64,000 bases of DNA from Patescibacteria group bacterium (lineage in GTDB: Bacteria > Patescibacteriota > Gracilibacteria > UBA1369 > UBA12470), in NCBI GenBank assembly GCA_018816885.1, contig JAHIUS010000001.1, positions 8,028-72,027 on the forward strand. Reading direction: 5' to 3'. Below, piece after piece: positions 10,392 to 61,885 of this stretch. The translations under genes were made by a program, and so were the position numbers. The stretch's first letter is position 1. Every line of letters begins with the position of its first letter. Under the pieces are notes generated by a model. That model was not told the DNA's origin. It worked only from the letters and a program-made list of their open reading frames with translations, and ran no database searches.

Positions 10392-10440
10392 TGTTGTGAG
10401 TTAGTGGGGCATAGAGCATGCGGCCTTCGGCCTCTCTGGA

Positions 10441-15329: not shown

Positions 15330-15377
15330 GTGATGCGTGGGCATTGGGCATGCGGGCTTTGCCCTCTGTGGAATTAA

Positions 15378-15962: not shown

Positions 15963-16101
15963 GATTGTATAGGTTAGGGCATTGGGCAGAGGACATAGGG
16001 CATGTGGCCGTTGGCCTCTGTGGATAGGAGATTGGTCTTTTGAGTCCGCGTGGGAGCCTTACTCCTGTTCTAACTTGCAAATTTTAAACTTGCGGGGGTA
16101 C

Positions 16102-22572: not shown

Positions 22573-22639
22573 GTGGCTTATGGCTTATAGCGTATGGTGT
22601 GGGCATGGGGCAGAGGGCATGGGGCCTCTGTGGATTTTT

Positions 22640-26963: not shown

Positions 26964-26993
26964 TTGGAGTGTTTAATTAAAGTTGTAAATTGT

Positions 26994-27086
26994 GGGGTAT
27001 AGGGCATAGGGCATGCGGCATAGGGCATGCGGCATAGGGCATGCGGCATAGGGCATGCGGGCCTGATGGCCCTCGGTGGAGTGGGT
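26994..27086 (+). repeat. Heptamer/14-mer array (GCATAGG GCATGCG x4) plus stop-proximal hairpin
   Basis: Direct reading: tagggcatgcggca repeated four times at 14-bp period, then GGGCC-TGAT-GGCCC hairpin and CTCGGTGGA flank. Confidence 0.9.
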
Positions 27087-32152: not shown

Positions 32153-32271
32153 GTGAATAGTTGTTAGTTGTAAGTGAGTGTGGAGTTTCAAGCACCCAGT
32201 GCCAAGTGAGTGGGGTTTCGCCTGGTGGCGAAACGGCTTGATTGGTAGTGGAGTCGCTTTCGCGGCCAGGC

Positions 32272-32310
32272 AATAAAAAACAGTAAAAGCATGGTTTGTT
32301 TGCTTTTACT
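32272..32310 (-). terminator. Intrinsic terminator or attenuator in the rpoB upstream region
   Basis: Minus-sense AGTAAAAGCA, 9-nt loop, TGCTTTTACT, followed by GTTTTTTATT. Confidence 0.6.
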
Positions 32311-32366
32311 ATCTTCAATAACTCATCCGGTGCCCTCTTCAGGGGCGTTCTGATAGTACCGCGAGG

Positions 32367-32394
32367 ATTATAAGGTGCGTTACCTGAAAGTCAA
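32367..32394 (-). promoter_or_regulatory. Near-consensus promoter immediately after the TIM-barrel gene stop
   Basis: Minus-sense TTGACT, 16 nt, TATAAT. Confidence 0.55.
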
Positions 32395-32401
32395 GCGGTT
32401 T

Positions 32402-33148: not shown

Positions 33149-33244
33149 TTTTGGTGTTTGTTAGGGCATGGGGCATTGGGCATGTGGCACTGCGAGCCTC
33201 TGCGGGGTTCCGCTGTGCGGAACGGTTTCATTGTAGTTGATTTT

Positions 33245-36449: not shown

Positions 36450-38387
36450 CTATTCTTTTTTCTCCTCGTCTTCTTCAACTACTTCTCCTTCAACAACGTC
36501 CTCTTTTTCTTCCTCGTCTTTTTCGTAGACGCGGACATCTTCGTCGTCTTCAGGCTTCGCACCTGGAGCGCCTGCGGCTTCGTACATTGCGGCTCCGACT
36601 TTTTGGATTAGTTCTGATAGGGCGTCGGAAGCTTCTTTGATTTTTCCATTCTCGGCATTTTCGTCTTCGAGAAGTTTTTTGAGTTCGTCGATTTTTTCTT
36701 GGATTGGCTTTTTGGTGTCTTCGTCGACTTTGTCTCCGGCGTCTTTGAGAGTGCGCTCACAGGTTGAGATTAGCCCTTCGGCGTTGATGCGGGTTTCGAC
36801 TTTCTCTTTCTTTTTCTTGTCTTCGTCGGCGTGGATTTCGGCCTCTTTTCTGAGTTTTTCCACCTCTTCATCGGACATTCCGCTAGATCCGGTTATTGTG
36901 ATGTGTTGTACTTTGTTGGTTCCTTTGTCGAGAGCTTTTACATTCAGGATTCCGTTAGCGTCGATGTCGAATGTTACTTCGATTTGCGGGACTCCGCGCG
37001 GTGCGGGTGGGATTCCATCCAGGATGAATCTGCCGAGCGATTTATTGTCGGCGGCCATTGGTCTTTCTCCTTGAAGTACATGAATTTCTACCGATGGTTG
37101 GTTGGCTGCTGCTGTTGAAAAAACTTGGGATTTGCTTGTTGGGATTGTCGAATTTCTTTCGATAAGAGGTGTCCTGACAGCTCCCATTGTTTCTATCCCC
37201 AGGGTTAAAGGTGTGACATCGAGAAGGAGGACTCCTTTAACATCTCCTTGTAAAACTCCACCTTGAATTGCGGCTCCGAGAGCTACAACTTCGTCGGGGT
37301 TGAGTCCGCTGTGCGGTTCTTTTCCGAAAATTTCTTCAACTTTCTTTTGTACACAAGGCATTCTGGTCATTCCTCCTACCAAAATGATTTCGTCCAGGTC
37401 TGATGAGTAGGTTTTGGCGTCGTCCATGGCTTTTCTGCAAGGGTCCATTGTTTTTTCCAGAAGGTCTGCGATTAAATCTTCAAGTTTTGAGCGGCTTAGT
37501 TTTAGGTTTAAGTGCTTAGGCCCGGATGCGTCCGCTGTTATAAATGGCAGGTTGATGTCTGTTTCGTGGGTTGATGAAAGCTCGATCTTGGCTTTTTCCG
37601 CGGCTTCTTTTAGCCTTTGAAGAGCCATTTTGTCTTTTGTCAGGTCGATCCCTTGATCTTTTTTGAACTCTTTAACCAGCCAGTCGATAATTTTTTCATC
37701 AAAATCATCACCTCCGAGTTGAGTATCGCCATTGGTCGAAAGGACTTCGAATTGCTTCTCGCCGTCGACATCGGCAAGTTCGAGGATGGAGACATCAAAA
37801 GTCCCTCCTCCGAGATCGAATACGGCAACTTTTTTGTCTTCTCCTTTTTTGTCCAGTCCGTATGCGAGTGCAGCGGCTGTTGGTTCGTTGATGATTCTTT
37901 TAACCTCAAGTCCGGCGATTTTCCCGGCGTCTTTGGTGGCTTGGCGTTGTGCGTCGTTGAAGTAGGCGGGGACGGTGATGACAGCTTCCGTAACGGGTTC
38001 ATCGAGGTATTTTTCCGCGTCTGCTTTGAGTTTCTGGAGAATCATTGCGGCGATTTCCGCCGGTCTGTGCTGTTTGCCGTTTAGGACGATTTCCACCTCT
38101 TTGTTTTTGCCTTCAGCTGTTTTGAAAGGCATTCGGTCACAGTCTTTTTTTGCTTCTTTATAGGTGTGGCCGATGAATCTTTTGGCCGAGAAAATTGTGT
38201 TCTCGGGATTGGTGACGGATTGACGCTTGGCGATTATTCCGACAAGGCGTTCTTTATCTTTCATCGCGACTATTGAAGGCGTGGTTCTTTGACCTTCAGA
38301 GTTTGTGATAACTGTTGGTTCGCCTCCTTCCATTACTGCAACGCAGCAGTTTGTGGTTCCGAGGTCGATTCCGATGATTCTAGACAT
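36450..38387 (-). CDS. dnaK: Chaperone DnaK (Hsp70)
   Basis: 645 aa, [17 protein letters not shown]. Confidence 0.98.
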
Positions 38388-38513
38388 GTTAGTGTGTAGT
38401 TAAGTAGTAAAGTAGTGAAGTAGTATGTGGTGTTTTGCCTGGCGGCAAAACGGCTTTTTGTAGTTTTTTGGCGCGGGAATCGCTTCGCTTTCTCGCGCTG
38501 TTGTAGGTTAAAC

Positions 38514-38540
38514 TTAGCACGCGACATTATAGAGTGCTAA
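38514..38540. promoter_or_regulatory. CIRCE operator (HrcA binding site)
   Basis: TTAGCACGC, N9, GAGTGCTAA versus consensus TTAGCACTC-N9-GAGTGCTAA (17 of 18). Confidence 0.85.
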
Positions 38541-38554
38541 TTTGTAAGGGTCAA
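38526..38554 (-). promoter_or_regulatory. dnaK promoter overlapped by CIRCE
   Basis: Minus-sense TTGACC, 17 nt, TATAAT. The -35 overlaps the stop codon of the upstream gene. Confidence 0.7.
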
Positions 38555-39603
38555 GAGTTTTTTTGGGTTTTGGGGCAGAGGGTATGGGGCATGAAGTTTT
38601 TCTCCAGTATCTCCATGGTTTCTCCTCCAGCCTTTTTGAACCCGACTTTTTCGTAGCAGCGGATGGCTCTTTTGTTCTCGGGGGAGACTGTTAGGGAGAT
38701 TTTCGAGAGTTTTAATTCTTGAAAGCAATATTTTAAAGCTTCACGGATTGCGGTTGTGCCGTATCCTTTGTCCCAGTAGGATTTTTCGCCGATTATTATG
38801 CCGAGAGAAGGGTCTTTGTCTAAATTGTGGATTCCGATGTTGCCTATGTGGGCGTTTGTTTTTTTGTCGATTATTGCTAGGAGTTTTTCTGTTTTTTTGT
38901 TTAAATTTTCTTCAAACCACTTCTGTTCTTCTTCAAAAGTTTCCGGGAAGGGGCCTGCCATGTGACGGGTGACTTCGGGATCGTTTATCCATTTCCAGCA
39001 TATATCGATGTCGGAGTGGCGGATTGGGCGGAGTAGGATTGAGGGGATAGCAATCTCTTCTAAAAGCTTTTCGAATTTTGTATATCCTGCTTTTTCATTG
39101 AAGTGTCCGGCTCCTCTTATGATATTAACTTTTGTATTTAGGGGTTTAGCGAGATCTTCCGCCAGTTCTAATGGGAAATAGGGGTCATTGTCTGAATGAT
39201 ATATCTGGAAATTTTTGCAGTTTTCTTTGATTTTCTTCCAGTTGAAAGGTTTGGCTACAAATGTTTTTACTAATTCATACCATTCGTTGGTTTTGGGCAG
39301 TGTTTCCGGATTGTATCCGGCTACGAAATAGGCTGATGCAACAGATTTATTTTCGAGGATTGTAAGCAGAAACGGTACCCCGAGGCTGTGTCCGATTACA
39401 ATGGAGTCTTCGTTCAAGAATTCTTCATGTTTTTTGAATACTTTGAGCCAATTTTCGAGTGTATTTCCTTCCGGGGTTGGGAATTTTGGTACAAAAACTT
39501 TGCGACCTCTTTTTTCAAGTTCGTTTTTTAGCCAAGGGAACCAGTTTTCTTCCGGGTGGCCGTATGCACCGTGAATTATGAATATATTAGCTTCCATCTC
39601 CAA
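38551..39603 (-). CDS. Fusion protein: alpha/beta serine hydrolase (YdeN/RBBP9-like) plus GNAT N-acetyltransferase
   Basis: N-terminal half has IIHGAYGHPEENWFPWL...GHSLG...; C-terminal half is RimJ/RimL-like GNAT (WDKGYGTTAIREAL). Confidence 0.7.
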   Translation of the reverse strand: MEMEANIFIIHGAYGHPEENWFPWLKNELEKRGRKVFVPKFPTPEGNTLENWLKVFKKHEEFLNEDSIVIGHSLGVPFLLTILENKSVASAYFVAGYNPETLPKTNEWYELVKTFVAKPFNWKKIKENCKNFQIYHSDNDPYFPLELAEDLAKPLNTKVNIIRGAGHFNEKAGYTKFEKLLEEIAIPSILLRPIRHSDIDICWKWINDPEVTRHMAGPFPETFEEEQKWFEENLNKKTEKLLAIIDKKTNAHIGNIGIHNLDKDPSLGIIIGEKSYWDKGYGTTAIREALKYCFQELKLSKISLTVSPENKRAIRCYEKVGFKKAGGETMEILEKNFMPHTLCPKTQKNS

Positions 39604-40072: not shown

Positions 40073-40083
40073 GGTTTTAGGTT

Positions 40084-40185
40084 GTTAGGGCAGAGGGCAT
40101 CCCCGCCTTGGCGGGGTTCAGGGCATGCGGGCCTTCTCGGCCCTCGGTGGATGTTCCGCTGCGCGGAACGGTTTTTTGTAGTGAG
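40084..40185 (+). repeat. Composite spacer with four module types
   Basis: GGGCAGA units, palindrome 40101-40116, GGGCC-TTCTC-GGCCC hairpin 40129-40143, GTTCCGC hairpin 40153-40169, then TTTTTTGTAGT. Confidence 0.9.
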
Positions 40186-40215
40186 GGCTGCAACCAGGAT
40201 TTTGTCCTGCTGTAG

Positions 40216-40935
40216 CTATTGTAGCATTTTGCTGACTTCTTCAAGCAAGGCTTTGTTGTAGGCGTAAGGCATTCGGATTGGGCCGAGGATTCCCATGAAT
40301 CCTTCGAATCCGTCTACGTTGTATTTGGTGACGACCAGTCCGCAGCTGTCGATTCTGTGGATCAGATTTTCTTCTCCGATGAAGATTTTTACTTCATTGT
40401 TTAGGTTTAAAGCTTCCAGGTTGTCGGCAAAGTACTCTCCTTCTTCGAGAACTTCGATGACTTGGCTGGCTTTCATTGGGTTTTCCTGAAATTCCGGTTG
40501 ACGCAGGATGCTGGAAATTCCGAGGTAGAAAGTTCTTTTTTTATCCGGGATGGTGGCGAAGCTGACGTTTGCGGTTGCTTGTGAAAGCAACGATACTGCG
40601 TCGTAAACTTTTTCTCTGGTTTTGTCTAGTTTGTATTGAGTCTGGAGTTTTTTGAGGTTTAGAAGGGCGAGTTTGCGGGCTTTTTCGAAGTCGGCAAGCT
40701 CTTCAACATACATTCTGTATCCTGCGGCTGTCGGAATTCGTCCTGCCGAAGTGTGGGGTTGGGTAATCAGACCTTCTTTCTCCAAAAAAGCCATGTCGTT
40801 ACGGATGGTTGCGGGGCTGAAGTTGAGTTTGTAACTGACTACTATGGTTTTCGACCCGACAGGTTCGGCGGATCCGACGAACTGCTTGATTATCGCTTGG
40901 AGGATTTTTTGTTTTCTGGGGTCGAGGTTTGGCAT
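40216..40935 (-). CDS. hrcA: Heat-inducible transcription repressor HrcA (short form)
   Basis: 239 aa, N-terminal winged helix (EPVGSKTIV...ATIRNDMAFLEKEGL) and C-terminal HrcA domain. Confidence 0.85.
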   Translation of the reverse strand: MPNLDPRKQKILQAIIKQFVGSAEPVGSKTIVVSYKLNFSPATIRNDMAFLEKEGLITQPHTSAGRIPTAAGYRMYVEELADFEKARKLALLNLKKLQTQYKLDKTREKVYDAVSLLSQATANVSFATIPDKKRTFYLGISSILRQPEFQENPMKASQVIEVLEEGEYFADNLEALNLNNEVKIFIGEENLIHRIDSCGLVVTKYNVDGFEGFMGILGPIRMPYAYNKALLEEVSKMLQ

Positions 40936-40977
40936 TTAGTGAAGTAACGAAGTAGTATTTAGTGAAGTAACAGGTGA

Positions 40978-41006
40978 AGTTTAATTGGTGGTGTTGTGTT
41001 TGACAA
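40978..41006 (-). promoter_or_regulatory. Candidate hrcA promoter
   Basis: Minus-sense TTGTCA, 17 nt, TAAACT. Its -35 overlaps a plus-strand TTGACA (41000-41005) that could serve ORF 41055. Confidence 0.35.
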
Positions 41007-41054
41007 GAGCTCAACCTGTTTGATATGTTGCGATCTTATTTTTTAAAAATATTT

Positions 41055-43517: not shown

Positions 43518-43544
43518 GTTTTGCTTTTGCAAAACGATTTTTTT
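43518..43544 (+). terminator. Intrinsic terminator after tsaC (GTTTTGC-type hairpin)
   Basis: GTTTTGC, TTTT loop, GCAAAAC, then GATTTTTTT. Confidence 0.7.
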
Positions 43545-44091: not shown

Positions 44092-44101
44092 TTTTTTTGT
44101 T

Positions 44102-44240
44102 AGTACCAAGTAATGAGTACCAAGTAATGAGTACCAAGTAATGAGTACCAAGTAATGAGTACCAAGTAATGAGTACCAAGTAATGAGTACCAAGTAATGA
44201 GTACCAAGTAATGAGTACCAAGTAATGAGTACCCAGTACC
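44102..44240 (+). repeat. Tandem repeat, 14-bp unit AGTACCAAGTAATG, 9 copies plus a partial copy
   Basis: Direct reading; perfect copies 44102-44227. Confidence 0.95.
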
Positions 44241-44433
44241 TGGTGTTTGGTCAAGGTTTTTTTGTGGCTAGTGTGTGATTTGGGCGTGAAATACTATATG
44301 TTGTGTGCCGTTGAATCGAGGCCTTTGTGTATAAAATTGTTATACAATAAAAATTTTCATGTGCAAGATAATATTCAAGGTTGTTTAACGGGAGTGCAGT
44401 GGTCTTTGATTTTAGATTTTTGATCTTTCATTG

Positions 44434-45950: not shown

Positions 45951-46337
45951 AGGGGTGTAGGATTGTAGTAGTGAAGATTGAAAATTCGGGAGCTGGTTGG
46001 ATTGTGAGTGGGTCCGTTGGACTTGGTCACTATCTCATCAGCGCGCAAATCAGGATGAAATCCTAGATTTGCGTCTCAATGGGTTAGGAGGTAAATAGAT
46101 CCCAAAGGATTCCCTTTCCATTCTTGGCCGGAGAGGGGGTCTTTTGGAAGACGGTTTGGATGAATTGTTTCGCAAGCGGATGATGTTTCTCTTTCCTGCT
46201 TTGCAGAAAATTAGAAGCCCCTGTGGTGTTTTGCTCTGCAAAACGGCTTATTTGTAGTAGGCGCGGTTGCCCGCGCTGATGGTTGCTCAATAATTATTCA
46301 AACCTTAGGTTGAAATGCTTTATTTGGGATCGATTTC

Positions 46338-47183: not shown

Positions 47184-47201
47184 GTTTAGGTTTGGTTAAA
47201 A

Positions 47202-47405
47202 TTATTTTGCATCTGTTTCAGCGCAGGATTGTTTGAATTTTTCGATCTTTGATGTGATTTCAGCTTCTGTTATTCCCGGTACCAAGTCTCTTATGAGTTC
47301 GGCAATGTCTGCTCGATGCGTGCTTATAAAGGCATTAGTACAGAGTTCCTCGATGGATCTTTCGGCGCGTTGAATTGTTTCTTGAGCTGTTTCTGGTTGT
47401 GGCAT
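47202..47405 (-). CDS. Hypothetical small protein
   Basis: 67 aa from MPQPETAQ; 18 nt upstream of ORF 46338-47183, probably co-transcribed. Confidence 0.45.
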   Translation of the reverse strand: MPQPETAQETIQRAERSIEELCTNAFISTHRADIAELIRDLVPGITEAEITSKIEKFKQSCAETDAK

Positions 47406-47467: not shown

Positions 47468-47541
47468 ATTTTTCTTCTAGCCGAGGGGCGGCTGATGCGG
47501 TATTTTTATGGTCGCAAATAAATTTTTAACCTAAAAACAAA

Positions 47542-48680: not shown

Positions 48681-48830
48681 ATGCCGATCATGTATGAAAT
48701 TCTGGAAGGGTCAAAAGGCGAATGGATTAAATTGGAACCTACTCCGAAATTGGGTGAAGAGGTTGATGCCAAGACGGAAAGTACTGGTGAACAGGTTAAG
48801 CAAGTTGTTTCTGAAGAAGCGGGAAAATAA
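48681..48830 (+). CDS. Candidate small acidic protein (49 aa)
   Basis: Hand-found ORF MPIMYEILEGSKGEWIKLEPTPKLGEEVDAKTESTGEQVKQVVSEEAGK; A/T-rich leader like other plus-strand genes. Confidence 0.35.
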   Translation: MPIMYEILEGSKGEWIKLEPTPKLGEEVDAKTESTGEQVKQVVSEEAGK

Positions 48831-48849
48831 ATTTTAATACTCAAAATCT

Positions 48850-50039: not shown

Positions 50040-50158
50040 AGATCAAAGACTCTAGATCAAAGATCAAAGATCAAAGATCAAAGATCAAAGATCAAAGATC
50101 AAAGATCAAAGATCAAAGATCAAAGATTATAGATCAAAGATTATAGATGCTAGATTAT
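50040..50158 (+). repeat. Tandem heptamer array, 17 units in register (10 perfect AGATCAA)
   Basis: Direct reading; carries a GATC about every 7 bp across 50054-50123. Confidence 0.95.
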
Positions 50159-53188: not shown

Positions 53189-53215
53189 AAGATTTATATT
53201 AAAAGATAGGTGTTT

Positions 53216-53325: not shown

Positions 53326-54390
53326 CTACAATCCCATCCCAATTAACCCCAATATCAACCCAAATATCGCGACCATTGCTCCGATGGTCCAGAAGTGCAT
53401 GACGACTTTGTATTCGGGCCAGCCGACGGCTTCGAAGTGGTGATGGATTGGAGCTATTTTGAAGACTTTTTTGCCGTTGCGGAGTTTTTTTGAGGTGAGC
53501 TGGATTATTACGGAAAGGGTCTCGATTACGAATATGAATGCTATGAAGGGGAGAATTAGCACTGTGTTGGTCATCATGGCGATTACTCCCATTGTGGCGC
53601 CGAGAGAGAGCGCGCCTGTGTCGCCCATGAAGAATCTGGCGGGTGGAATGTTGAACCAAAGAAATGCCGTTGTGGAGCCGCAGATTACTGCGCAGAAAGC
53701 GGATAGTATAAAAAGTCCTTTGACGTAGGCGAGGGCGCCGAGAGCGCCGAAAGTTATGATGATTAAGCCGCCTGCGAGGCCGTCCAGGCCGTCTGTGATG
53801 TTTACCGAGTTGGCGGAGGCGATGATGATGAAGATGAATAGAGGGATATACCAAAGTCCCATTTGGAAGTCGCCGATTCCGGGAATATGGATTTGATCGT
53901 AGCCGAGTTTGAAGTAGAAAAAGAGTCCTCCAAGCACTGCGAACAGGGTTAGCCAGAAGAGTTTGGGTTTGATGTTGATACCTTTGCTTTTGCCCCAGCC
54001 TTTGAGGTTGAAAACATCATCGACCGCTCCGAGCAAGGCTACTGAAATCAGTGTGAATATGGGAAGATAGGTTTCGTTTCTGTTCCAGAGGGAGTGTTCG
54101 AATACTCCGCAAAGTGAGAGCAGATGCGTGATTCCGATTACGATGAGGACTGTTCCCCAGATTAAGATCCCGCCCATTGTGGGGGTCCCGGATTTTTTGA
54201 TGTGTAGTGCGGAAAAAAGTTTCGTTGCTCGTCCGTCCGGGGCTGTTTCGCGGATTTGTTTGCCGATTTTGTATTTGTGAAGTAGGGCAATGAAAGGTTT
54301 GGCTGCGAGAAGCGCGATTATGAAAGCCAGGCCGAATGAGCCGAAGATCAGGATGAGGTGGCGGACGGTGTCGGTGAGTGCGAATGGCAT
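53326..54390 (-). CDS. mraY: Phospho-N-acetylmuramoyl-pentapeptide transferase
   Basis: 354 aa polytopic; NSVNITDGLDGLA, PIHHHFE. Confidence 0.95.
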   Translation of the reverse strand: MPFALTDTVRHLILIFGSFGLAFIIALLAAKPFIALLHKYKIGKQIRETAPDGRATKLFSALHIKKSGTPTMGGILIWGTVLIVIGITHLLSLCGVFEHSLWNRNETYLPIFTLISVALLGAVDDVFNLKGWGKSKGINIKPKLFWLTLFAVLGGLFFYFKLGYDQIHIPGIGDFQMGLWYIPLFIFIIIASANSVNITDGLDGLAGGLIIITFGALGALAYVKGLFILSAFCAVICGSTTAFLWFNIPPARFFMGDTGALSLGATMGVIAMMTNTVLILPFIAFIFVIETLSVIIQLTSKKLRNGKKVFKIAPIHHHFEAVGWPEYKVVMHFWTIGAMVAIFGLILGLIGMGL

Positions 54391-54432
54391 ATGGCGGATG
54401 GCTAATGGCTAATGGCTAATGGCTAATGGCTT
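54391..54432 (+). repeat. Tandem heptamer array ATGGCTA (6 units) abutting the mraY start codon
   Basis: Direct reading: atggcgg atggcta x4 atggctt. Confidence 0.95.
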
Positions 54433-54480
54433 GTTGCGTATGGATTTTAGCTTAAAAGTATGGTTTTCGGTAGTTTTTGG

Positions 54481-55450: not shown

Positions 55451-56344
55451 TTACCACTCATACGAGTTGTAAATCCAGTCCAGCATGAGTTTGGTTTCGC
55501 CGAATCTGTCATGGGAGCCGAGGATGACTGTGAGGATTTCGTGTCCGGCATGATTTTCCGCAACTGTTATTAAGCATTCTCCTGCTAAGGGGGTTTTGCC
55601 GGTTTTGAGGCCTTTTACGTTGAGGTAGGAGCCGAGGAGTTGGTTTGTTGAGGTGAGGTCGTGGGTCGGGTAGCCGAAAGCTCCTGTTATCGTGGCTTCC
55701 GGGAGGCTGGTGATTTCGCGTATGAATTCGTCTTTGAGGAGGTACATTGAGAGGTTTGCGAGGTCTTTGGTTGTTGAGTAGCCTTCATCATCCAGTCCAG
55801 ATGCGCTTGTGAAGTTGGTGTTCGTTAGTCCCAGTTGGCGGGCTTTTTGGTTCATTTTTTTGATAAAATTTTCTTCGCTTCCGGAGTTGAATTCCGCGAG
55901 GGCGACTGCGCAGTCGTTCCCGGATTGGATCAGCAGTCCGTAAAGCAGGGATTCGACTGTGATCTGTTCGCCTGTGCCGAGCCAGATTTGTGAGCCGGGG
56001 GTGTTTGCGGCTTTAGAGCTAACGGTGACAACTGAGTCTAACTCTTCTTCTTCCAGAATTATGTAGGCTGTCATCAGTTTGGTGAGGCTGGCGATTGGGA
56101 GTTTTTCGTGCTGGTTTAAAGTGTAAAGCGGTGTGTTGGATGTTAGGTCGAGGGCGTATCCGGATTCGGCGTAGATTATCGGTTCGATTTTGCCGATTTT
56201 TAAGGTTGGAATTGAGTTTATATCAATGAGTTCGCTTACTTCAAAAGGCTCTTGCTGCGCGAGTATGGGCGGCTGTTCTATCTCGGCGAGAGAGTTGGTT
56301 TGGAGGAGGGAGGTTATCAGTAGTGAGAGGAGGGCTCGGAGCAT
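55451..56344 (-). CDS. D-alanyl-D-alanine carboxypeptidase (peptidase S11)
   Basis: 297 aa with SLTK, SGN and KTG active-site motifs and a signal peptide. Confidence 0.88.
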   Translation of the reverse strand: MLRALLSLLITSLLQTNSLAEIEQPPILAQQEPFEVSELIDINSIPTLKIGKIEPIIYAESGYALDLTSNTPLYTLNQHEKLPIASLTKLMTAYIILEEEELDSVVTVSSKAANTPGSQIWLGTGEQITVESLLYGLLIQSGNDCAVALAEFNSGSEENFIKKMNQKARQLGLTNTNFTSASGLDDEGYSTTKDLANLSMYLLKDEFIREITSLPEATITGAFGYPTHDLTSTNQLLGSYLNVKGLKTGKTPLAGECLITVAENHAGHEILTVILGSHDRFGETKLMLDWIYNSYEW

Positions 56345-56379
56345 GTTAGTGACGAGTAATGAGTACCAAGTACCCAGTG

Positions 56380-56570
56380 GGTGGTGTTTCCGCTTCGCGG
56401 AAACGGCTTATTTGTAGTTTAGGGCGAGGGGATCGCTTCGCTTCCTCTCGCTGGTGGTGTTTCCGCTTCGCGGAAACGGCTTGATTTGTAGTTTAGGGCG
56501 AGGGGATCGCTTCGCTTCCTCTCGCTGGTGGTGTTTCCGCTTCGCGGAAACGGCTTGATTTGTAGTGGTA
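56380..56570 (+). repeat. Tandem repeat, 73-74 bp unit, about 2.6 copies; each unit has two hairpins joined by TTTGTAGT
   Basis: Units begin at 56380, 56453 and 56527. GTTTCCGC/GCGGAAAC hairpin, then GCGAGGGGA-TCGCTTCGCT-TCCTCTCGC hairpin. Confidence 0.95.
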
Positions 56571-56637: not shown

Positions 56638-56665
56638 ATGATCTTAAATTTTTAATCAAAAAAAC

Positions 56666-57319
56666 ATGTCTAATACGCCTGATGAGAACAATTCTCCTGT
56701 CGAGGATTCCAAAAGAGAAGTTCTTGAGAATCAATGTATGGATTGTATGGGGACTGCTGCTGATGAGACTTTGGCGAAGGTTTTGAGTTATTTTCCTGAA
56801 ACTGCACAATTGTTTATTAAGACTCAGGAGTATGCTACAAGCGTGACGGGAAAAAAGGGTTTGCAGTATGTAGTGCAACTTAAGGTTGGGGATAAGTATT
56901 TAGCAGGGGGTACGTGCAGAGTTCCTGGCTCAGAATATTTGGGGATTTCTGGTTATTCTGGTCAAAATTTAATGCAGAAAATTAAGGTGATTCGTGTTTT
57001 GAGAGGTGAATACGAATTAGGTTTATCTGCTGATGAGGTTTATGGGATTTTGGATGCAAATGATGCCGATGATAGTGATAAGGAGTATGTGCTGATTGTC
57101 AAAAAAATGCTGGAAGTTATGGGGGTTACGGATGAGGAATTAACTTTATTGAGAGAGTTCTATGATGCACATAGAAGAAGCGAGAGAATGCATCGTCAGG
57201 CAACTGATCTTGAAGATCAAGCAAAAAAACTTAGAGAGCAGGCTATAGCTATTGTGCGTGAAATAGAGACAGATAGAATAGGGGGGATATATCGAGCTCG
57301 AAAATCAACCGAAGCTTAG
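56666..57319 (+). CDS. Hypothetical protein
   Basis: 217 aa, no family recognised. Confidence 0.55.
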   Translation: MSNTPDENNSPVEDSKREVLENQCMDCMGTAADETLAKVLSYFPETAQLFIKTQEYATSVTGKKGLQYVVQLKVGDKYLAGGTCRVPGSEYLGISGYSGQNLMQKIKVIRVLRGEYELGLSADEVYGILDANDADDSDKEYVLIVKKMLEVMGVTDEELTLLREFYDAHRRSERMHRQATDLEDQAKKLREQAIAIVREIETDRIGGIYRARKSTEA

Positions 57320-58066: not shown

Positions 58067-59480
58067 AATATGGGATGAAATCTTTTCCTAATTCAATGAG
58101 AAGCTGAGCTTCGGTAGGCCAGTTTTCCGGGAGGTAGTCTTCCGGAATTATTTCTGAGACTTCGGCTTCGGGGATAAGTTCCAGAAGTAGATCTAAGGTC
58201 TTCGATTCTTCTCCTGAGAGGTTAAAAATAGTTGTTTCTTCAAGTCCGAGTCTTGCGGCGTTCCCATATCTGGCGGTGTATAGGCCGTATCTGTTTAAGT
58301 AGTTTTTTGTGTCTGTTGCGAGGCCTTCATATCCCGAGCTGTTTACGACTTGGAGAGGGATGTTTTCTTTAAAAAGTCCCGGCGTGTGCAAGAAAAGCTC
58401 TGCGAAATGTTGGATCTCGGAGTAGTCGTATGAGCTTGGAACGAGTACGAAAGCTCCTCCGTAAAGTTCACGGTCCGGGGTGTATAAGAATCCTCCGGTT
58501 GCATAAGGGTCGTCGCTGAATACTTGCGACAGAATTGAGTCTTGCGAGAAGTCGTCCGCCATTTTCCCGAGCCTGGCTATTTCTGTAAATGTTAGGTTTG
58601 TTACGAAGTTAGAGGAGAACGCTTCGTAAAGGTTTTTGAGTTTTCCCGGGCTGGCGAGGACTCCGAGTGAGAAAGCTTTGTCCTTGAGGGCCGCGATGAT
58701 TTGTTGTTGCCTTAAAGCTCTGTCGAAGTCGGAAGTTGTTTTGCGGCTGCGTGCGAATTTGAGGGCATCTTCGCCGTCAAAATGGTTTTCTCCCGCATCA
58801 AGATAGAATGTTTGGTATTGGCCTGTTTCTTCGATCGGATAGTACGGATCGTAAAAATTTTCATCCAAATATACATCGATTCCTCCGAGAGCATCTACGA
58901 TATCAATGAATCCGTTGAAGTCTACGAGCGCGTAATAATGGATTTCTATGTCGAGGAGTTCCGCTATTTTTTCTTTCAACGCGCTAAGGGCGATGTCCCG
59001 GGCTTCTTCTTCGCTCCTACCCTGATTTTCGTGGTACATTTTGGTCAATTCATAGAAGCGATTGATTCTCCAATTACCTATCAGCTCATCTTCGATATAA
59101 AAATCTCTCGGTATGGAAAGCATCGGAACGAGATTGTTCTCTTTGTCGAGTGATGCGACCATTATTGTATCTGTAAGTTCCGCTCCGTCGTGGCTGCCAC
59201 CTCCCATCCCGAGTAAGAGAAAGTTTGTGTGGCCTTCTTCATCTGTTGCGAGTGAGCTGCTGATGACGGAGAGGATGATGTTTTTTACTGAAATGGAGTT
59301 TTCTGTCATGTCGAGGATTTTGGCTGCTGCGATGCACATCCCCCAGATGAATACGGCTATTATTATGAATGCTATCAGGTTGGCTTTTATGAATGCAAAA
59401 GCTCCTTTTTTGGCTTTTTCCAGGTTGTCGTGTGTTTTTATTACTCTGTCGGAGCGGATTTTTTTTGTTTGGAAATCCAT
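57954..59480 (-). CDS. LytR-CpsA-Psr (LCP) family cell-envelope transferase
   Basis: 508 aa, N-terminal TM, LCP core (NFLLLGMGGGSHDGAELTDTIMVASL...SIPRD). Confidence 0.85.
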   Translation of the reverse strand: MDFQTKKIRSDRVIKTHDNLEKAKKGAFAFIKANLIAFIIIAVFIWGMCIAAAKILDMTENSISVKNIILSVISSSLATDEEGHTNFLLLGMGGGSHDGAELTDTIMVASLDKENNLVPMLSIPRDFYIEDELIGNWRINRFYELTKMYHENQGRSEEEARDIALSALKEKIAELLDIEIHYYALVDFNGFIDIVDALGGIDVYLDENFYDPYYPIEETGQYQTFYLDAGENHFDGEDALKFARSRKTTSDFDRALRQQQIIAALKDKAFSLGVLASPGKLKNLYEAFSSNFVTNLTFTEIARLGKMADDFSQDSILSQVFSDDPYATGGFLYTPDRELYGGAFVLVPSSYDYSEIQHFAELFLHTPGLFKENIPLQVVNSSGYEGLATDTKNYLNRYGLYTARYGNAARLGLEETTIFNLSGEESKTLDLLLELIPEAEVSEIIPEDYLPENWPTEAQLLIELGKDFIPYYEENNETRFYYWQYIPPAETEEAAEEGETAEADSSEE

Positions 59481-59649
59481 GTGTTAGTGAGGAGTAATGA
59501 GTACCAAGTGCCCAGTGATTGGTGTTTCGCTGGCGCGAAACAACTTTTTGTAGTGAGGGCGCGAGAATCGCTTCGCTTTCTTGCGCTGTGGTGTTTTGCT
59601 GCGCAAAACGTCTTTTTTTATTTGAGCGGTTCCCGCTCTGTCGCCGCGT

Positions 59650-59681
59650 ATATTAGTACTTTAAGTTGTAGATTACAACTT
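59650..59681 (-). promoter_or_regulatory. Candidate LCP promoter with a palindromic operator over the -35
   Basis: Minus-sense TTGTAA, 17 nt, TAATAT; perfect inverted repeat AAGTTGTA-GAT-TACAACTT at 59663-59681. Confidence 0.45.
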
Positions 59682-61754: not shown

Positions 61755-61785
61755 GTTTTTGCTTGCGCAAAAACACTTTTGTAGT
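61755..61785 (+). terminator. Intrinsic terminator after the lipoprotein cluster (GTTTTTGC-type hairpin)
   Basis: GTTTTTGC, TTGC loop, GCAAAAAC, then ACTTTTGTAGTTT. A second hairpin GAGCC...GGCTC plus TTTTGTG follows. Confidence 0.6.
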
Positions 61786-61885
61786 TTGAGCCTCGTTATA
61801 CTCGGCTCTTTTGTGCGCAAGCAGAATTTTATTCTGTTGCGCATATTTAATCTGGATTTAATGTCGTTGTGTTAGCATCAGGAGT

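What the first reader, a model, noticed from the sequence alone, without database searches (positions are those of the whole stretch)
56380..56570. Two-hairpin composite element (GTTTYSC hairpin, TTTGTAGT, invariant-loop hairpin) duplicated in tandem and present in three long 5-prime leaders
A 73-74 bp unit is repeated about 2.6 times at 56380-56570.

Hairpin 1 (GTTTCCGC-TTC-GCGGAAAC) belongs to a 12-member family. Members start at 32215, 33207, 38432, 40153, 43518, 46228, 56386, 56459, 56533, 59524, 59593 and 61755. Their stems differ by paired substitutions: GTTTCGCC, GTTCCGC, GTTTTGCC, GTTTTGC, GTTTCCGC, GTTTCGC, GTTTTTGC. All are followed by a T-rich GGCTTnTTTGTAGT tail.

Hairpin 2 has an invariant 10-nt loop TCGCTTCGCT between 9-bp stems that differ between loci:
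- GCGCGGGAA/TTCTCGCGC at 38471-38498
- GCGAGGGGA/TCCTCTCGC at 56424-56451 and 56498-56525
- GCGCGAGAA/TTCTTGCGC at 59559-59586

Each version has exactly one G-T pair as written on the + strand. That would be G-U in + sense RNA but an A-C mismatch in minus sense.

Three copies of hairpin 1 (43518, 46228, 61755) sit after plus-strand genes and look like ordinary intrinsic terminators. The other nine sit upstream of minus-strand start codons. There the hairpin plus T-run could only terminate antisense transcription emerging from the gene body.

For dnaK, and probably LCP, the predicted promoters lie upstream of the element. It would therefore also be transcribed in reverse as part of a 130-165 nt 5-prime UTR.
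Basis: partly seen in the sequence, partly recalled or inferred. Interest (0 to 1): 0.7.

Follow-up and report, generated by a model that had tools for sequence, protein, structure and literature searches.

The report
One-way intergenic hairpin repeat family
A small groundwater bacterium (Candidatus Peregrinibacteria) carries a family of short two-hairpin DNA repeats between its genes that always point the same way along the chromosome, whichever way the neighbouring genes run; this looks like a new, strictly one-directional relative of the repeated palindromes and terminators known from other bacteria.

Summary
A 74-bp unit is repeated 2.5 times at 56380-56566. All 12 GTT..AAC hairpins (HP1) and all 4 TCGCTTCGCT-loop hairpins (HP2) sit at the stated coordinates. 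Nothing in Rfam matches.

I found 27 HP1 copies at 24 loci, in this genome and in three related Peregrinibacteria. Every copy lies on the G/T-rich DNA strand:
- 16 loci are in the 5' regions of genes on the opposite strand.
- 8 loci are 20-67 nt (one 278 nt) after stop codons of same-strand genes.

Some copies are kept at orthologous sites in a species with 87% DnaK identity, with fully compensated stem changes. Other sites, such as the dnaK and hrcA leaders, gain or lose the element. Blocks of 71-75 nt recur upstream of unrelated genes, and assemblies differ in tandem copy number.

My best reading (confidence 0.4) is a REP/BIME-like modular repeat family whose HP1 unit works as a one-way terminator or insulator. 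The U-rich tail exists only in G-strand sense. The main rival is a functionless repeat copied through single-stranded DNA.

HP2's "invariant loop" rests on three distinct sequences, and a related contig has a different loop. I rate it a new variant of a known kind, of moderate interest.

The parts
56380..56566 (+). Tandem array: 2.5 head-to-tail copies of the 74-bp HP1-linker-HP2 module. It lies between the start of a Peptidase_S11 (D-Ala-D-Ala carboxypeptidase) gene (55451-56344, minus) and a hypothetical gene (56666-57319, plus).
   Evidence: Tandem Repeats Finder; sequence. The NCBI MAG copy of the same locus has 1.5 units, and Logan contigs break inside the repeat.
56386..56404 (+). HP1 copy (GTTTCCGC-ttc-GCGGAAAC). 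Identical copies lie at 56459-56477 and 56533-56551.
56424..56451 (+). HP2 copy (GCGAGGGGA-TCGCTTCGCT-TCCTCTCGC). An identical copy lies at 56498-56525.
38432..38451 (+). HP1 in the dnaK 5' UTR, 45 nt from the ATG at 38387.
38471..38498 (+). HP2 in the dnaK 5' UTR, between HP1 and the CIRCE operator.
38514..38554 (-). dnaK promoter (-35 at 38554-38549, -10 at 38531-38526) overlapping the CIRCE operator TTAGCACGC-N9-GAGTGCTAA (38514-40). This places the element inside the dnaK transcript.
   Evidence: CIRCE is conserved in L004, L089, L091 and L094.
59524..59541 (+). HP1 (GTTTCGC-tggc-GCGAAAC), 44 nt upstream of the LCP (LytR_cpsA_psr) start codon at 59480.
59559..59586 (+). HP2 (GCGCGAGAA-TCGCTTCGCT-TTCTTGCGC).
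59593..59638 (+). A second, diverged HP1 (GTTTTGC-tgc-GCAAAAC), a T7 run, then a further hairpin GAGCGG-ttc-CCGCTC (59624-59638). With the two parts above it forms an HP1-HP2-HP1 mosaic like the 56380 array.
59650..59678 (-). Candidate LCP promoter TTGTAA-17-TAATAT, upstream of the whole mosaic.
   Evidence: read from the sequence. It was not returned by the consensus scan.
32215..32234 (+). HP1 upstream of rpoB. An orthologous copy with a compensated stem is at L091 18066-18087.
33207..33223 (+). HP1 between serS and the AP_endonuc_2 (sugar-phosphate isomerase/epimerase-type) gene. An orthologous copy is at L091 16835-16853; L089 has none.
40153..40217 (+). HP1 (40153-40169) followed by a second hairpin (40186-40217), between hrcA and grpE.
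43518..43535 (+). HP1 with a T7 run, 31 nt after the stop codon of the + strand Sua5/YciO/YrdC-family gene. This is the terminator position.
46228..46277 (+). HP1 (46228-46244) followed by a second hairpin GGCGCGG-ttgc-CCGCGCT (46260-46277), in a convergent intergenic region.
61755..61808 (+). HP1 (61755-61774), 20 nt after the stop codon of a + gene, followed by a second hairpin (61788-61808).

Best explanation
The array is 2.5 copies of a module from a lineage-specific family of intergenic palindromic units. The family resembles REP/BIME repeats and occurs in one sub-clade of Candidatus Peregrinibacteria.

**Anatomy of a module, read on the G/T-rich strand.**
- A TGGT flank.
- A 7-9 bp hairpin GTTTYSC/GSRAAAC (HP1), closed by a T.G pair.
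- A tail GGYTT-(N)-ATTTGTAG.
- Often a second GC-rich hairpin (HP2) 3-7 nt further on.

**Shown.**
- Every copy has this orientation, whatever the direction of the neighbouring genes.
- The hairpin stays perfectly paired through compensated changes, including at orthologous sites in another species.
- Only this sense has a U-rich tail.
- Copies sit either just after stop codons of G-strand genes or inside the 5' UTRs of genes on the other strand.

**Inferred.**
- HP1 acts as a one-way transcription stop. It ends G-strand genes. Placed in the 5' UTR of an opposite-strand gene, it halts RNA polymerases coming antisense through that gene before they reach its promoter.
- The sense mRNA reads through the element, because that sense has no U tract. 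The mRNA simply carries it as a structured leader.
- The family grew by local duplication or slippage, which produced the 74-bp array. It probably also spread by strand-specific copying, which would fix its polarity.
For: **Polarity.** 27 copies at 24 loci lie on the G-rich strand of their contig, and none on the other:
- window, + strand: intergenic GC skew +0.26; four-fold-site skew +0.43 in + genes and -0.30 on the coding strand of - genes;
- L084 on '-' (skew -0.25), L085 on '+' (+0.13), L086 on '-' (-0.17);
- L091, L089, L094 and L095.

The flank-only search also gives 0 hits on the C-rich strand.

**Terminator anatomy in one sense only.**
- Hairpin dG is -6.4 to -15.7 kcal/mol.
- There are 6.2 U in the 12 nt after the stem in G-sense against 1.7 in C-sense.
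- The closing pair is U.G in 18/23 copies, which would be C.A in the other sense.
- All wobble pairs in HP2, and the one in L089's HP1, are G.T on the G strand.

**Position.**
- 8 loci lie 20-67 nt after stop codons of G-strand genes, one of them at 278 nt.
- 16 loci lie 12-81 nt upstream of start codons of C-strand genes, typically 42-45 nt. Where promoters can be placed (dnaK here, hrcA in L089 and L091), the element is downstream of the promoter.

**Selection on structure.**
- Orthologous copies upstream of rpoB and between serS and the isomerase gene, in a species with 87% DnaK identity, have different but fully paired stems. The rest of those spacers is unalignable.
- 92% of cells are paired and 26 cells have changes on both sides, against 8.8 in shuffles.

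**Duplicative growth.**
- Blocks of 71-75 nt are 91-94% identical upstream of unrelated genes.
- HP1-HP2-HP1 mosaics occur at two loci.
- Assemblies carry 1.5 versus 2.5 units.
Against: - There are no transcript data, so termination has not been observed.
- Most tails start with GGC and contain a conserved A (GGCTTGATTTGTAG). The stem base next to the tail is A-U rich. By E. coli rules these are weak terminators, and the tail looks more like a sequence motif than a plain U tract.
- No G-sense promoter is predicted just upstream of the 5'-UTR copies, so the antisense transcription they would stop is hypothetical.
- G.T-only wobble pairs and T-rich tails are also what the strong C-to-T bias of this strand would give without any selection.
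- The conserved TGGT flank (ACCA in the other sense, 19/25 copies) is not explained by a terminator role.
- Close relatives do without the element at the same sites: the L089 dnaK leader and serS spacer, and the window's own hrcA leader. It is therefore dispensable at any one locus.
Confidence: 0.4

Rival explanations
1. The units are selfish or neutral palindromic repeats. They are copied through single-stranded DNA on the lagging-strand template, as REPs are by a RAYT or small IS200/IS605 derivatives by TnpA. Polarity comes from the copying mechanism, and any terminator or UTR effect is incidental.
For: - The polarity relative to compositional skew is strict. That is the bias reported for IS200/IS605 elements, which excise from and insert into the lagging-strand template (PMC6006769).
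- A GTAG tetranucleotide lies 3-7 nt 5' of the second hairpin. GTAG is the REP tag (PMC3733652).
- Sub-families with alternative complementary stem residues and G.T pairs are typical of REPs.
- Presence is patchy between relatives at the dnaK, hrcA and serS spacers.
- Near-identical 71-75-nt blocks sit at unrelated loci.
- Tandem amplification occurs.
- In L091 the dnaK leader holds an unrelated MITE, so that site accepts insertions.
Against: - No transposase is seen. Ten window proteins are housekeeping or unknown. The whole genome is not available.
- HP1 stems differ between most copies, which is awkward for a sequence-specific Y1 enzyme.
- There are no inverted REP doublets; every copy is head-to-tail.
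- Copies are retained at orthologous sites with compensated changes across 87% DnaK divergence, which argues for selection.
- Placement relative to start and stop codons is regular (42-45 nt and 20-67 nt).
Confidence: 0.27
2. The functional form is the opposite-sense RNA. Inside the 5' UTRs of C-strand genes the module gives HP2', an A-rich single strand, HP1' and then ACCA. It would act as an mRNA processing or stabilising element: a 5' hairpin that protects against 5'-end-dependent decay, or a tRNA-like minihelix with an ACCA tail recognised by RNase P. The copies after G-strand genes would be by-products.
For: - 16 of 24 loci are in 5' regions of C-strand genes, at a rather constant 42-45 nt from the ATG in several cases.
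- The block that recurs at unrelated genes includes the whole leader up to about 8 nt from the ATG.
- ACCA follows the stem in 19/25 copies in this sense.
- The element lies downstream of mapped promoter/CIRCE sites.
Against: - No G-strand gene carries the module flipped in its own 5' UTR: 0 of about 12 in the window.
- 8 loci sit in the classical terminator position of G-strand genes.
- Wobble pairs become A.C mismatches in this sense, and folding is weaker in 9 of 10 loci.
- RNase P recognition is recalled from general knowledge and was not tested.
Confidence: 0.15
3. Each 5'-UTR copy is the terminator of a short cis-antisense RNA. That RNA would cover the start codon and the repeat-built leader, and could also pair in trans with other leaders built from the same heptamers.
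For: - The conserved 71-75-nt block, read in G-sense, is a G/U-rich single-stranded stretch complementary to the leaders, followed by a hairpin and a U-rich tail. That is the layout of a small RNA.
Against: - No G-sense promoter-like site lies upstream of any copy in the scans.
- The region to the left is ordinary coding sequence that differs from gene to gene.
- Copies after G-strand genes do not fit.
- There is no Rfam hit.
Confidence: 0.07
4. These are ordinary, independently evolved terminators, and the family resemblance and polarity are by-products of base composition.
For: - The + strand is T- and G-rich, so hairpin-plus-T-run matches are far more common on it, both in the real sequence and in shuffles.
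Against: - The shared flanks TGGT and GGYTT-N-ATTTGTAG, the shared GTTT/AAAC stem ends, covariance-model E-values down to 1e-12 and blocks 91-94% identical at unrelated loci are not compositional effects.
- Two thirds of the loci are not downstream of any same-sense gene.
Confidence: 0.03

Closest known systems
REP / BIME elements (GTAG-tagged repetitive extragenic palindromes; PMC3733652, PMC2817692)
   Same: - Short intergenic stem-loops, with stems of 6-13 bp.
- Sub-families that differ by complementary stem changes.
- Frequent G.T pairs.
- A GTAG motif next to a hairpin.
- Modular mosaics of two hairpin types that can be reiterated in tandem with variable copy number, as in BIME-2.
- Proposed roles in termination and mRNA stability.
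   Different: - All copies share a single orientation and are head-to-tail. REPs are mostly inverted HH/TT dimers, and head-to-tail dimers are rare.
- GTAG is 3-7 nt from HP2 and 8-14 nt from HP1, not at the foot of the stem.
- Two thirds of the loci are in 5' regions or divergent spacers. REPs sit mostly downstream of ORFs.
- No RAYT gene has been seen.
- The host is a CPR bacterium, a group not among the 8 phyla listed for tagged REPs.
Rho-independent (intrinsic) terminators
   Same: - GC-containing hairpin with a 3-4-nt loop, followed by a U-rich stretch in one sense.
- 8 loci lie 20-67 nt (one 278 nt) after stop codons of same-sense genes.
   Different: - The copies form a sequence family with conserved flanks.
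- The U tract is set back by GGC and interrupted by a conserved A.
- The base of the stem is A-U rich.
- Most copies face the wrong way for the genes around them.
IS200/IS605-family derivatives (palindrome-associated elements moved as single strands)
   Same: - Hairpin-defined units.
- Strict strand bias relative to replication-linked asymmetry (PMC6006769).
   Different: - The two hairpins are unlike each other, and stems vary between copies.
- No transposase, conserved cleavage tetranucleotide or clear element ends were found.
BOX / Correia-type modular intergenic repeats of streptococci and neisseriae (from general knowledge)
   Same: - Modular repeats with a variable number of internal units.
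- Located in UTRs, where they form stable RNA hairpins.
   Different: - No sequence similarity.
- Those repeats occur in both orientations and are longer.

Membership tests
GTAG-tagged REP | Short palindromic stem-loop (20-40 bp, stem 6-13 bp) repeated in intergenic DNA | tested here: met
   HP1 has stems of 7-9 bp and HP2 of 9 bp. All copies are intergenic.
GTAG-tagged REP | Unpaired GTAG tag directly at one end of the stem (0-2 nt away) | tested here: not met
   For HP1, GTAG lies 8-14 nt 3' of the stem. For the second hairpin it lies 3-7 nt 5' of the stem, which is borderline at best.
GTAG-tagged REP / BIME / REPIN | Units mostly paired in inverted orientation (HH or TT dimers), with both orientations present in the genome | tested here: not met
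   27 of 27 copies have one orientation relative to strand skew. Arrays are head-to-tail.
GTAG-tagged REP | Associated RAYT (Y1 HUH transposase) gene in the genome | not testable with these tools
   Only about 95 kb of this genome was seen. Ten window proteins scanned against Pfam show no transposase.
GTAG-tagged REP | High copy number (typically more than 100 per genome) | not testable with these tools
   Density is 12 copies in 32 kb of the window and none in the 32-kb ribosomal-protein operon. There is no whole genome to count.
Intrinsic terminator | Stable hairpin immediately followed by a U tract in the transcribed sense | tested here: inconclusive
   Hairpin dG is -6.4 to -15.7 kcal/mol. 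There are 3-6 U in the first 8 nt, but most tails start with GGC and carry an internal A.
Intrinsic terminator | Lies downstream of a gene or operon in the same sense | tested here: not met
   This holds for 8 of 24 loci. The other 16 are antisense to the adjacent gene's 5' region.
Intrinsic terminator | RNA 3' ends map to the U tract | not testable with these tools
   No transcriptome data are available.
Any Rfam family | Covariance-model match | tested here: not met
   No hits at gathering score. At E<=1 there were only two unrelated weak hits elsewhere in the window.
IS200/IS605-type single-strand element | Strand bias following replication asymmetry | tested here: met
   All copies lie on the G/T-rich strand. 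Which strand leads in replication is inferred, not shown.
IS200/IS605-type single-strand element | Similar subterminal hairpins at both ends, a fixed target/cleavage tetranucleotide, and a TnpA gene | tested here: not met
   HP1 and HP2 are unlike each other. HP1 often stands alone (33207, 43518). No defined ends or TnpA were seen.
CRISPR array | Identical repeats separated by unique spacers | tested here: not met
   The 55 nt between HP1 copies are the same in each unit.
parS (ParB site TGTTNCACGTGNAACA; from general knowledge) | Uninterrupted 16-bp palindrome with a central CACGTG | tested here: not met
   Only the outer TGTTT/AAACA resembles parS. The arms are separated by a 3-5-nt loop and the inner bases vary.

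The most novel reading that the evidence does not exclude
Selection, not a copying mechanism, keeps these hairpin modules pointing one way along each chromosome arm. They would then be a genome-wide system of one-way transcription insulators tied to replication direction. It would stop all transcription in one direction at gene boundaries, including antisense polymerases heading into the promoters of opposite-strand genes. That would happen in a bacterium whose ribosomal-protein, rpoBC and dnaK genes all lie on the C-rich strand. Chromosome-scale polarity of terminators has not been described as an organising principle.
Probability: 0.18. Interest if true: 0.75.

Novelty: new variant of a known kind. 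Interest (0 to 1): 0.52.

Why it matters
CPR bacteria have tiny genomes and are usually described as poor in repeats. Here a large share of the non-coding DNA is built from a small grammar of hairpins and heptamer repeats, all with the same chromosomal polarity.

If the polarity reflects function, it points to direction-specific control of transcription linked to replication. If it reflects single-strand copying, it shows REP-like elements at work in the CPR.

Either way, the family is a ready-made marker for strand and replichore in metagenome bins of this clade. It also explains why assemblies break or collapse at these spacers. Both readings can be tested with existing groundwater metagenomes and metatranscriptomes.

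Tried and rejected
**Searches that found nothing.**
- Rfam at gathering score and at E<=1 found nothing at the elements.
- A viral-contig scan with the HP1 pattern found 0 matches.
- A literature search for Peregrinibacteria repeats found nothing relevant.
- Pfam on ten unannotated or neighbouring window proteins showed no transposase or nuclease.

**Families considered and rejected.**
- CRISPR: the 'spacers' are identical.
- Integron attC: the core order is RYYYAAC...GTTRRRY, the reverse of GTT...AAC.
- parS: there is no central CACGTG and the spacing varies.
- The E. coli Chi octamer GCTGGTGG at the unit junction occurs only twice, so I treat it as coincidence.

**Ideas that did not hold up.**
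- A promoter carried inside the module: no convincing -35/-10 in either sense.
- The module as the terminator of the upstream minus-strand gene: there is no U tract in that sense, and at dnaK the promoter lies between that gene and the module.

**Look-ups that added nothing.**
- A same-strain contig (L088) is identical.
- Exact-protein look-ups for LCP, ComEC and P0002 returned nothing.
- More distant Peregrinibacteria dnaK loci (L004-L012, L030, L064, L076) contain no family members, with one sub-threshold hit (L007, 16.9 bits, E 0.39).

**A check on circularity.** The HP1 covariation statistics come from copies first found as perfect palindromes. I therefore added the flank-only search.

Full report
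**1. What is there**

The window comes from a Candidatus Peregrinibacteria/Peribacteria genome. Its DnaK is 86% identical to that of an uncultured Peribacteria MAG. The same sequence occurs in NCBI MAG GCA_043810065.1 and in a 121-kb ENA contig.

Tandem Repeats Finder reports 56380-56566 as a 74-bp unit repeated 2.5 times at 99% identity (sequence).

All twelve are intergenic. All have the same flanks on the + strand: TGGT before the stem and GGYTT-(N)-ATTTGTAG after it.

The loop TCGCTTCGCT occurs four times, on the + strand only, against 0.1 expected. It sits in 9-bp stems at the stated coordinates. Rfam has no match at gathering score or at E<=1.

A second GC-rich hairpin 3-7 nt after GTAGT is more general than reported. 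It also follows HP1 at 40153, 46228, 59593 and 61755, and in several copies from related contigs.

**2. The property that defines the family: polarity**

The window has a strong strand asymmetry that does not depend on gene direction. At four-fold degenerate sites, + strand genes show GC skew +0.43 and AT skew -0.62. Minus-strand genes show -0.30 and +0.32 on their own coding strand. Intergenic DNA has GC skew +0.26. The + strand is therefore G/T-rich throughout.

Every HP1 copy lies on that strand. I gathered more copies in five ways.
- One metagenome pattern scan gave four contigs from JGI sample Ga0180007, with seven copies.
- Contigs around exact or close DnaK homologues gave a species at 87% DnaK identity (L091-93, four copies), one at 92% (L089, one copy) and one at 85% (L094, one copy).
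- Flanks of the window in other assemblies gave two further copies.
- A covariance model built from 23 copies was searched on both strands of about 480 kb. It hit only the G-rich strand of each contig.
- A flank-only regular expression that ignores pairing gave the same copies, none on the C-rich strand, and two or three decayed ones.

In all there are 27 copies at 24 loci in one orientation. Sixteen loci lie in the 5' region of a gene on the opposite (C-rich) strand, 12-81 nt from the start codon and often 42-45 nt. Eight lie after the stop codon of a gene on the same strand, 20-67 nt away, with one at 278 nt.

Whether the G/T-rich strand is the leading strand is an inference from the usual rule. 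It is uncomfortable here, because the ribosomal-protein operon, rpoBC and dnaK all lie on the C-rich strand. Unusual strand disparities are documented in other CPR lineages (PMC7143001).

**3. Conservation and turnover**

The 87% species has HP1 at the same two spacers as the window: upstream of rpoB, and between serS and the isomerase-type gene. The stems differ but are fully paired (GTTTCGCC versus GTTTCCCGC; GTTCCGC versus GTTTCCG). The surrounding spacer does not align, apart from a separate conserved block. That argues for selection on the hairpin.

Presence is nevertheless patchy.

| Site | Window | L089 (92% DnaK) | L091 (87%) | L004 (86%) / L094 (85%) |
|---|---|---|---|---|
| dnaK leader | HP1 + HP2 | nothing; CIRCE about 30 nt from the ATG | an unrelated MITE of about 190 nt with 16-bp inverted ends | a small hairpin with a TGCTTTT-type loop |
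| hrcA leader | lost, together with CIRCE | HP1 beside CIRCE | HP1 beside CIRCE | not examined |

The table rests.

Blocks of 71-75 nt, comprising leader repeat, HP1 and tail, are 91-94% identical upstream of unrelated genes. HP1-HP2-HP1 mosaics occur at both 56380 and 59524. The NCBI MAG has 1.5 units where the window has 2.5, and short-read contigs end inside the repeat. The family therefore also grows by duplication.

**4. Structure statistics**

For HP1, 92% of cells are paired. Five of nine pairs change on both sides, and 26 such cells are seen against 8.8 in shuffles. Because the copies were first found as perfect palindromes, the independent support is the flank-only search and the orthologous pairs.

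For HP2 there are only three distinct sequences. All cells pair and two pairs change on both sides, but 60 of 500 shuffles do as well. A related contig has an HP2-like stem (GCGCGCAA) with a different loop. The loop is therefore invariant only within this genome.

The single G.T pair per HP2 stem is real. It is also what the C-to-T bias of this strand predicts.

**5. How it may work**

In G-strand sense, HP1 (dG -6.4 to -15.7 kcal/mol) is followed by 6.2 U in 12 nt on average. In the other sense the figure is 1.7. The closing pair is U.G in G-sense and C.A in the other sense. At eight loci the unit sits where a terminator should.

At dnaK, the sigma-70-type promoter and CIRCE lie upstream of the module. 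The sense mRNA therefore carries it as part of a leader of about 131 nt. A candidate LCP promoter gives about 163 nt.

The simplest single-function reading is a one-way stop for G-sense transcription. It would end G-strand genes, and it would shield the promoters of opposite-strand genes from antisense polymerases.

There are weak points. There are no transcript data. Tails begin with GGC and hold a conserved A. No antisense promoters are predicted nearby. The conserved TGGT/ACCA flank is unexplained.

The main rival is that polarity comes from single-strand copying on the lagging-strand template, as for IS200/IS605 and proposed for REPs. That reading fits the GTAG motif, the patchy presence and the amplification. 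It does not fit the variable stems, the missing inverted doublets or the orthologous conservation. A sense-RNA role in 5' UTRs and a cis-antisense RNA role are less likely, for the reasons given under the rival explanations.

**6. Comparison with known families, and verdict**

The family works most like REP/BIME repeats that double as terminators. It fails two REP membership tests: the position of the GTAG tag and the inverted pairing. It also fails the positional test for ordinary terminators at two thirds of its loci.

I file it as a new variant of a known kind: modular intergenic palindromic repeats. It is new for the CPR, and strict chromosomal polarity is its distinguishing feature. Interest is moderate (0.52). 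It would be higher if the polarity proves to be selected.

Noticed in passing
window 1-64000; L004-L012, L089, L091 compared with L015, L020, L046, L051, L082: The + strand is G/T-rich at four-fold sites whatever the gene direction. Yet the ribosomal-protein operon, rpoBC, serS and dnaK all lie on the C-rich strand. In every Peregrinibacteria dnaK locus the dnaK strand is C-rich (GC skew -0.005 to -0.24). In five other CPR phyla it is G-rich (+0.08 to +0.19). Either these core genes face the replication fork, or the skew rule is unusual in this phylum.
   Followed up: partly
window 4974-5042, 7550-7596, 10392-10440, 15345-15377, 15963-16030, 22573-22639, 26964-27086, 33149-33206, 40073-40152: There is a second hairpin family in spacers upstream of minus-strand genes. 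In mRNA sense it reads CCACAGAG-GGSC-GAA-GSCC-GC followed by (YATGCCC)n heptamer repeats. GGGCAT occurs 27:0 on the + versus - strand in intergenic DNA. The apex GCGAAGC is shared with the HP2 loop and with the HP1 copy at 56386.
   Followed up: partly
window 38388-38431, 44092-44250, 56345-56385, 59481-59523, and most spacers in 1-28000: Leaders of minus-strand genes lack a Shine-Dalgarno sequence. They are built from short tandem repeats that are G-poor in mRNA sense, such as TTTACTAC, CCACTA and CATTACTTGGTACT (9.8 copies at 44102-44238). GTAGT occurs 37:2 on the + versus - strand in intergenic DNA. Only one gene (45585) shows GGAGGAGG.
   Followed up: partly
window 32282-32400; L091 17880-18010 (minus strand): A block of about 120 nt between the isomerase-type gene and rpoB is conserved with the 87% species. 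It includes a 9-bp hairpin AGTAAAAGC/GCTTTTACT and the motifs ATAACTCAT, CTGATAGT, GAGGATTATA and GTCAA-CGG. It may be an unannotated RNA or leader. Rfam has no hit.
   Followed up: no
L091 9760-9930 (minus strand): In the 87% species the dnaK leader carries an insert of about 190 nt bounded by 16-bp inverted repeats GGACCCTCTGATAAAT. This is a MITE sitting between CIRCE and the start codon.
   Followed up: no
window 40936-41024: The window's hrcA upstream region keeps a TTGTCA-17-TAAACT promoter and the GGTGGTGTT flank. It has lost both CIRCE and HP1, which L089 and L091 have at this site. Here only dnaK retains CIRCE.
   Followed up: partly
window 47515-47541, 48823-48849, 56640-56665, 47184-47210, 53189-53215: Several genes on either strand share an AAATTTTTAAYC-like motif about 10-20 nt upstream of the ATG, oriented with the gene. 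It may be a promoter -10 element or a translation signal.
   Followed up: no
L095 16140-16221 versus L096 16140-16242 (left of the window, same genome): Another tandem repeat, the 21-nt unit TCTTTGATTTTTGATTTAGAG, differs by one unit between the ENA and NCBI assemblies. The difference runs in the opposite direction to the 74-bp array difference.
   Followed up: no
window 38551-39603 versus L089 4274-5334: The gene between grpE and dnaK is a fused Ser_hydrolase + GNAT acetyltransferase (350 aa) in the window. In the 92% relative it is two separate genes.
   Followed up: no
C-sense 3' flank of HP1, e.g. window 56382-56385, 38428-38431, 59520-59523: Read on the minus strand, HP1 is followed by ACCA in 19 of 25 copies. 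A 7-9-bp helix with a 3' ACCA resembles a tRNA acceptor minihelix, which is a possible RNase P or CCA-enzyme mimic. The E. coli Chi octamer GCTGGTGG also appears at the unit junction, probably by coincidence.
   Followed up: no
window 50040-50141, 54383-54443, 63330-63397: Further long heptamer arrays are present: (AGATCAA)x14.6, (AATGGCT)x7 and (ATCTAAA)x9.4. They lie in spacers next to PFK/sigma-factor, mraY and comEC genes.
   Followed up: no
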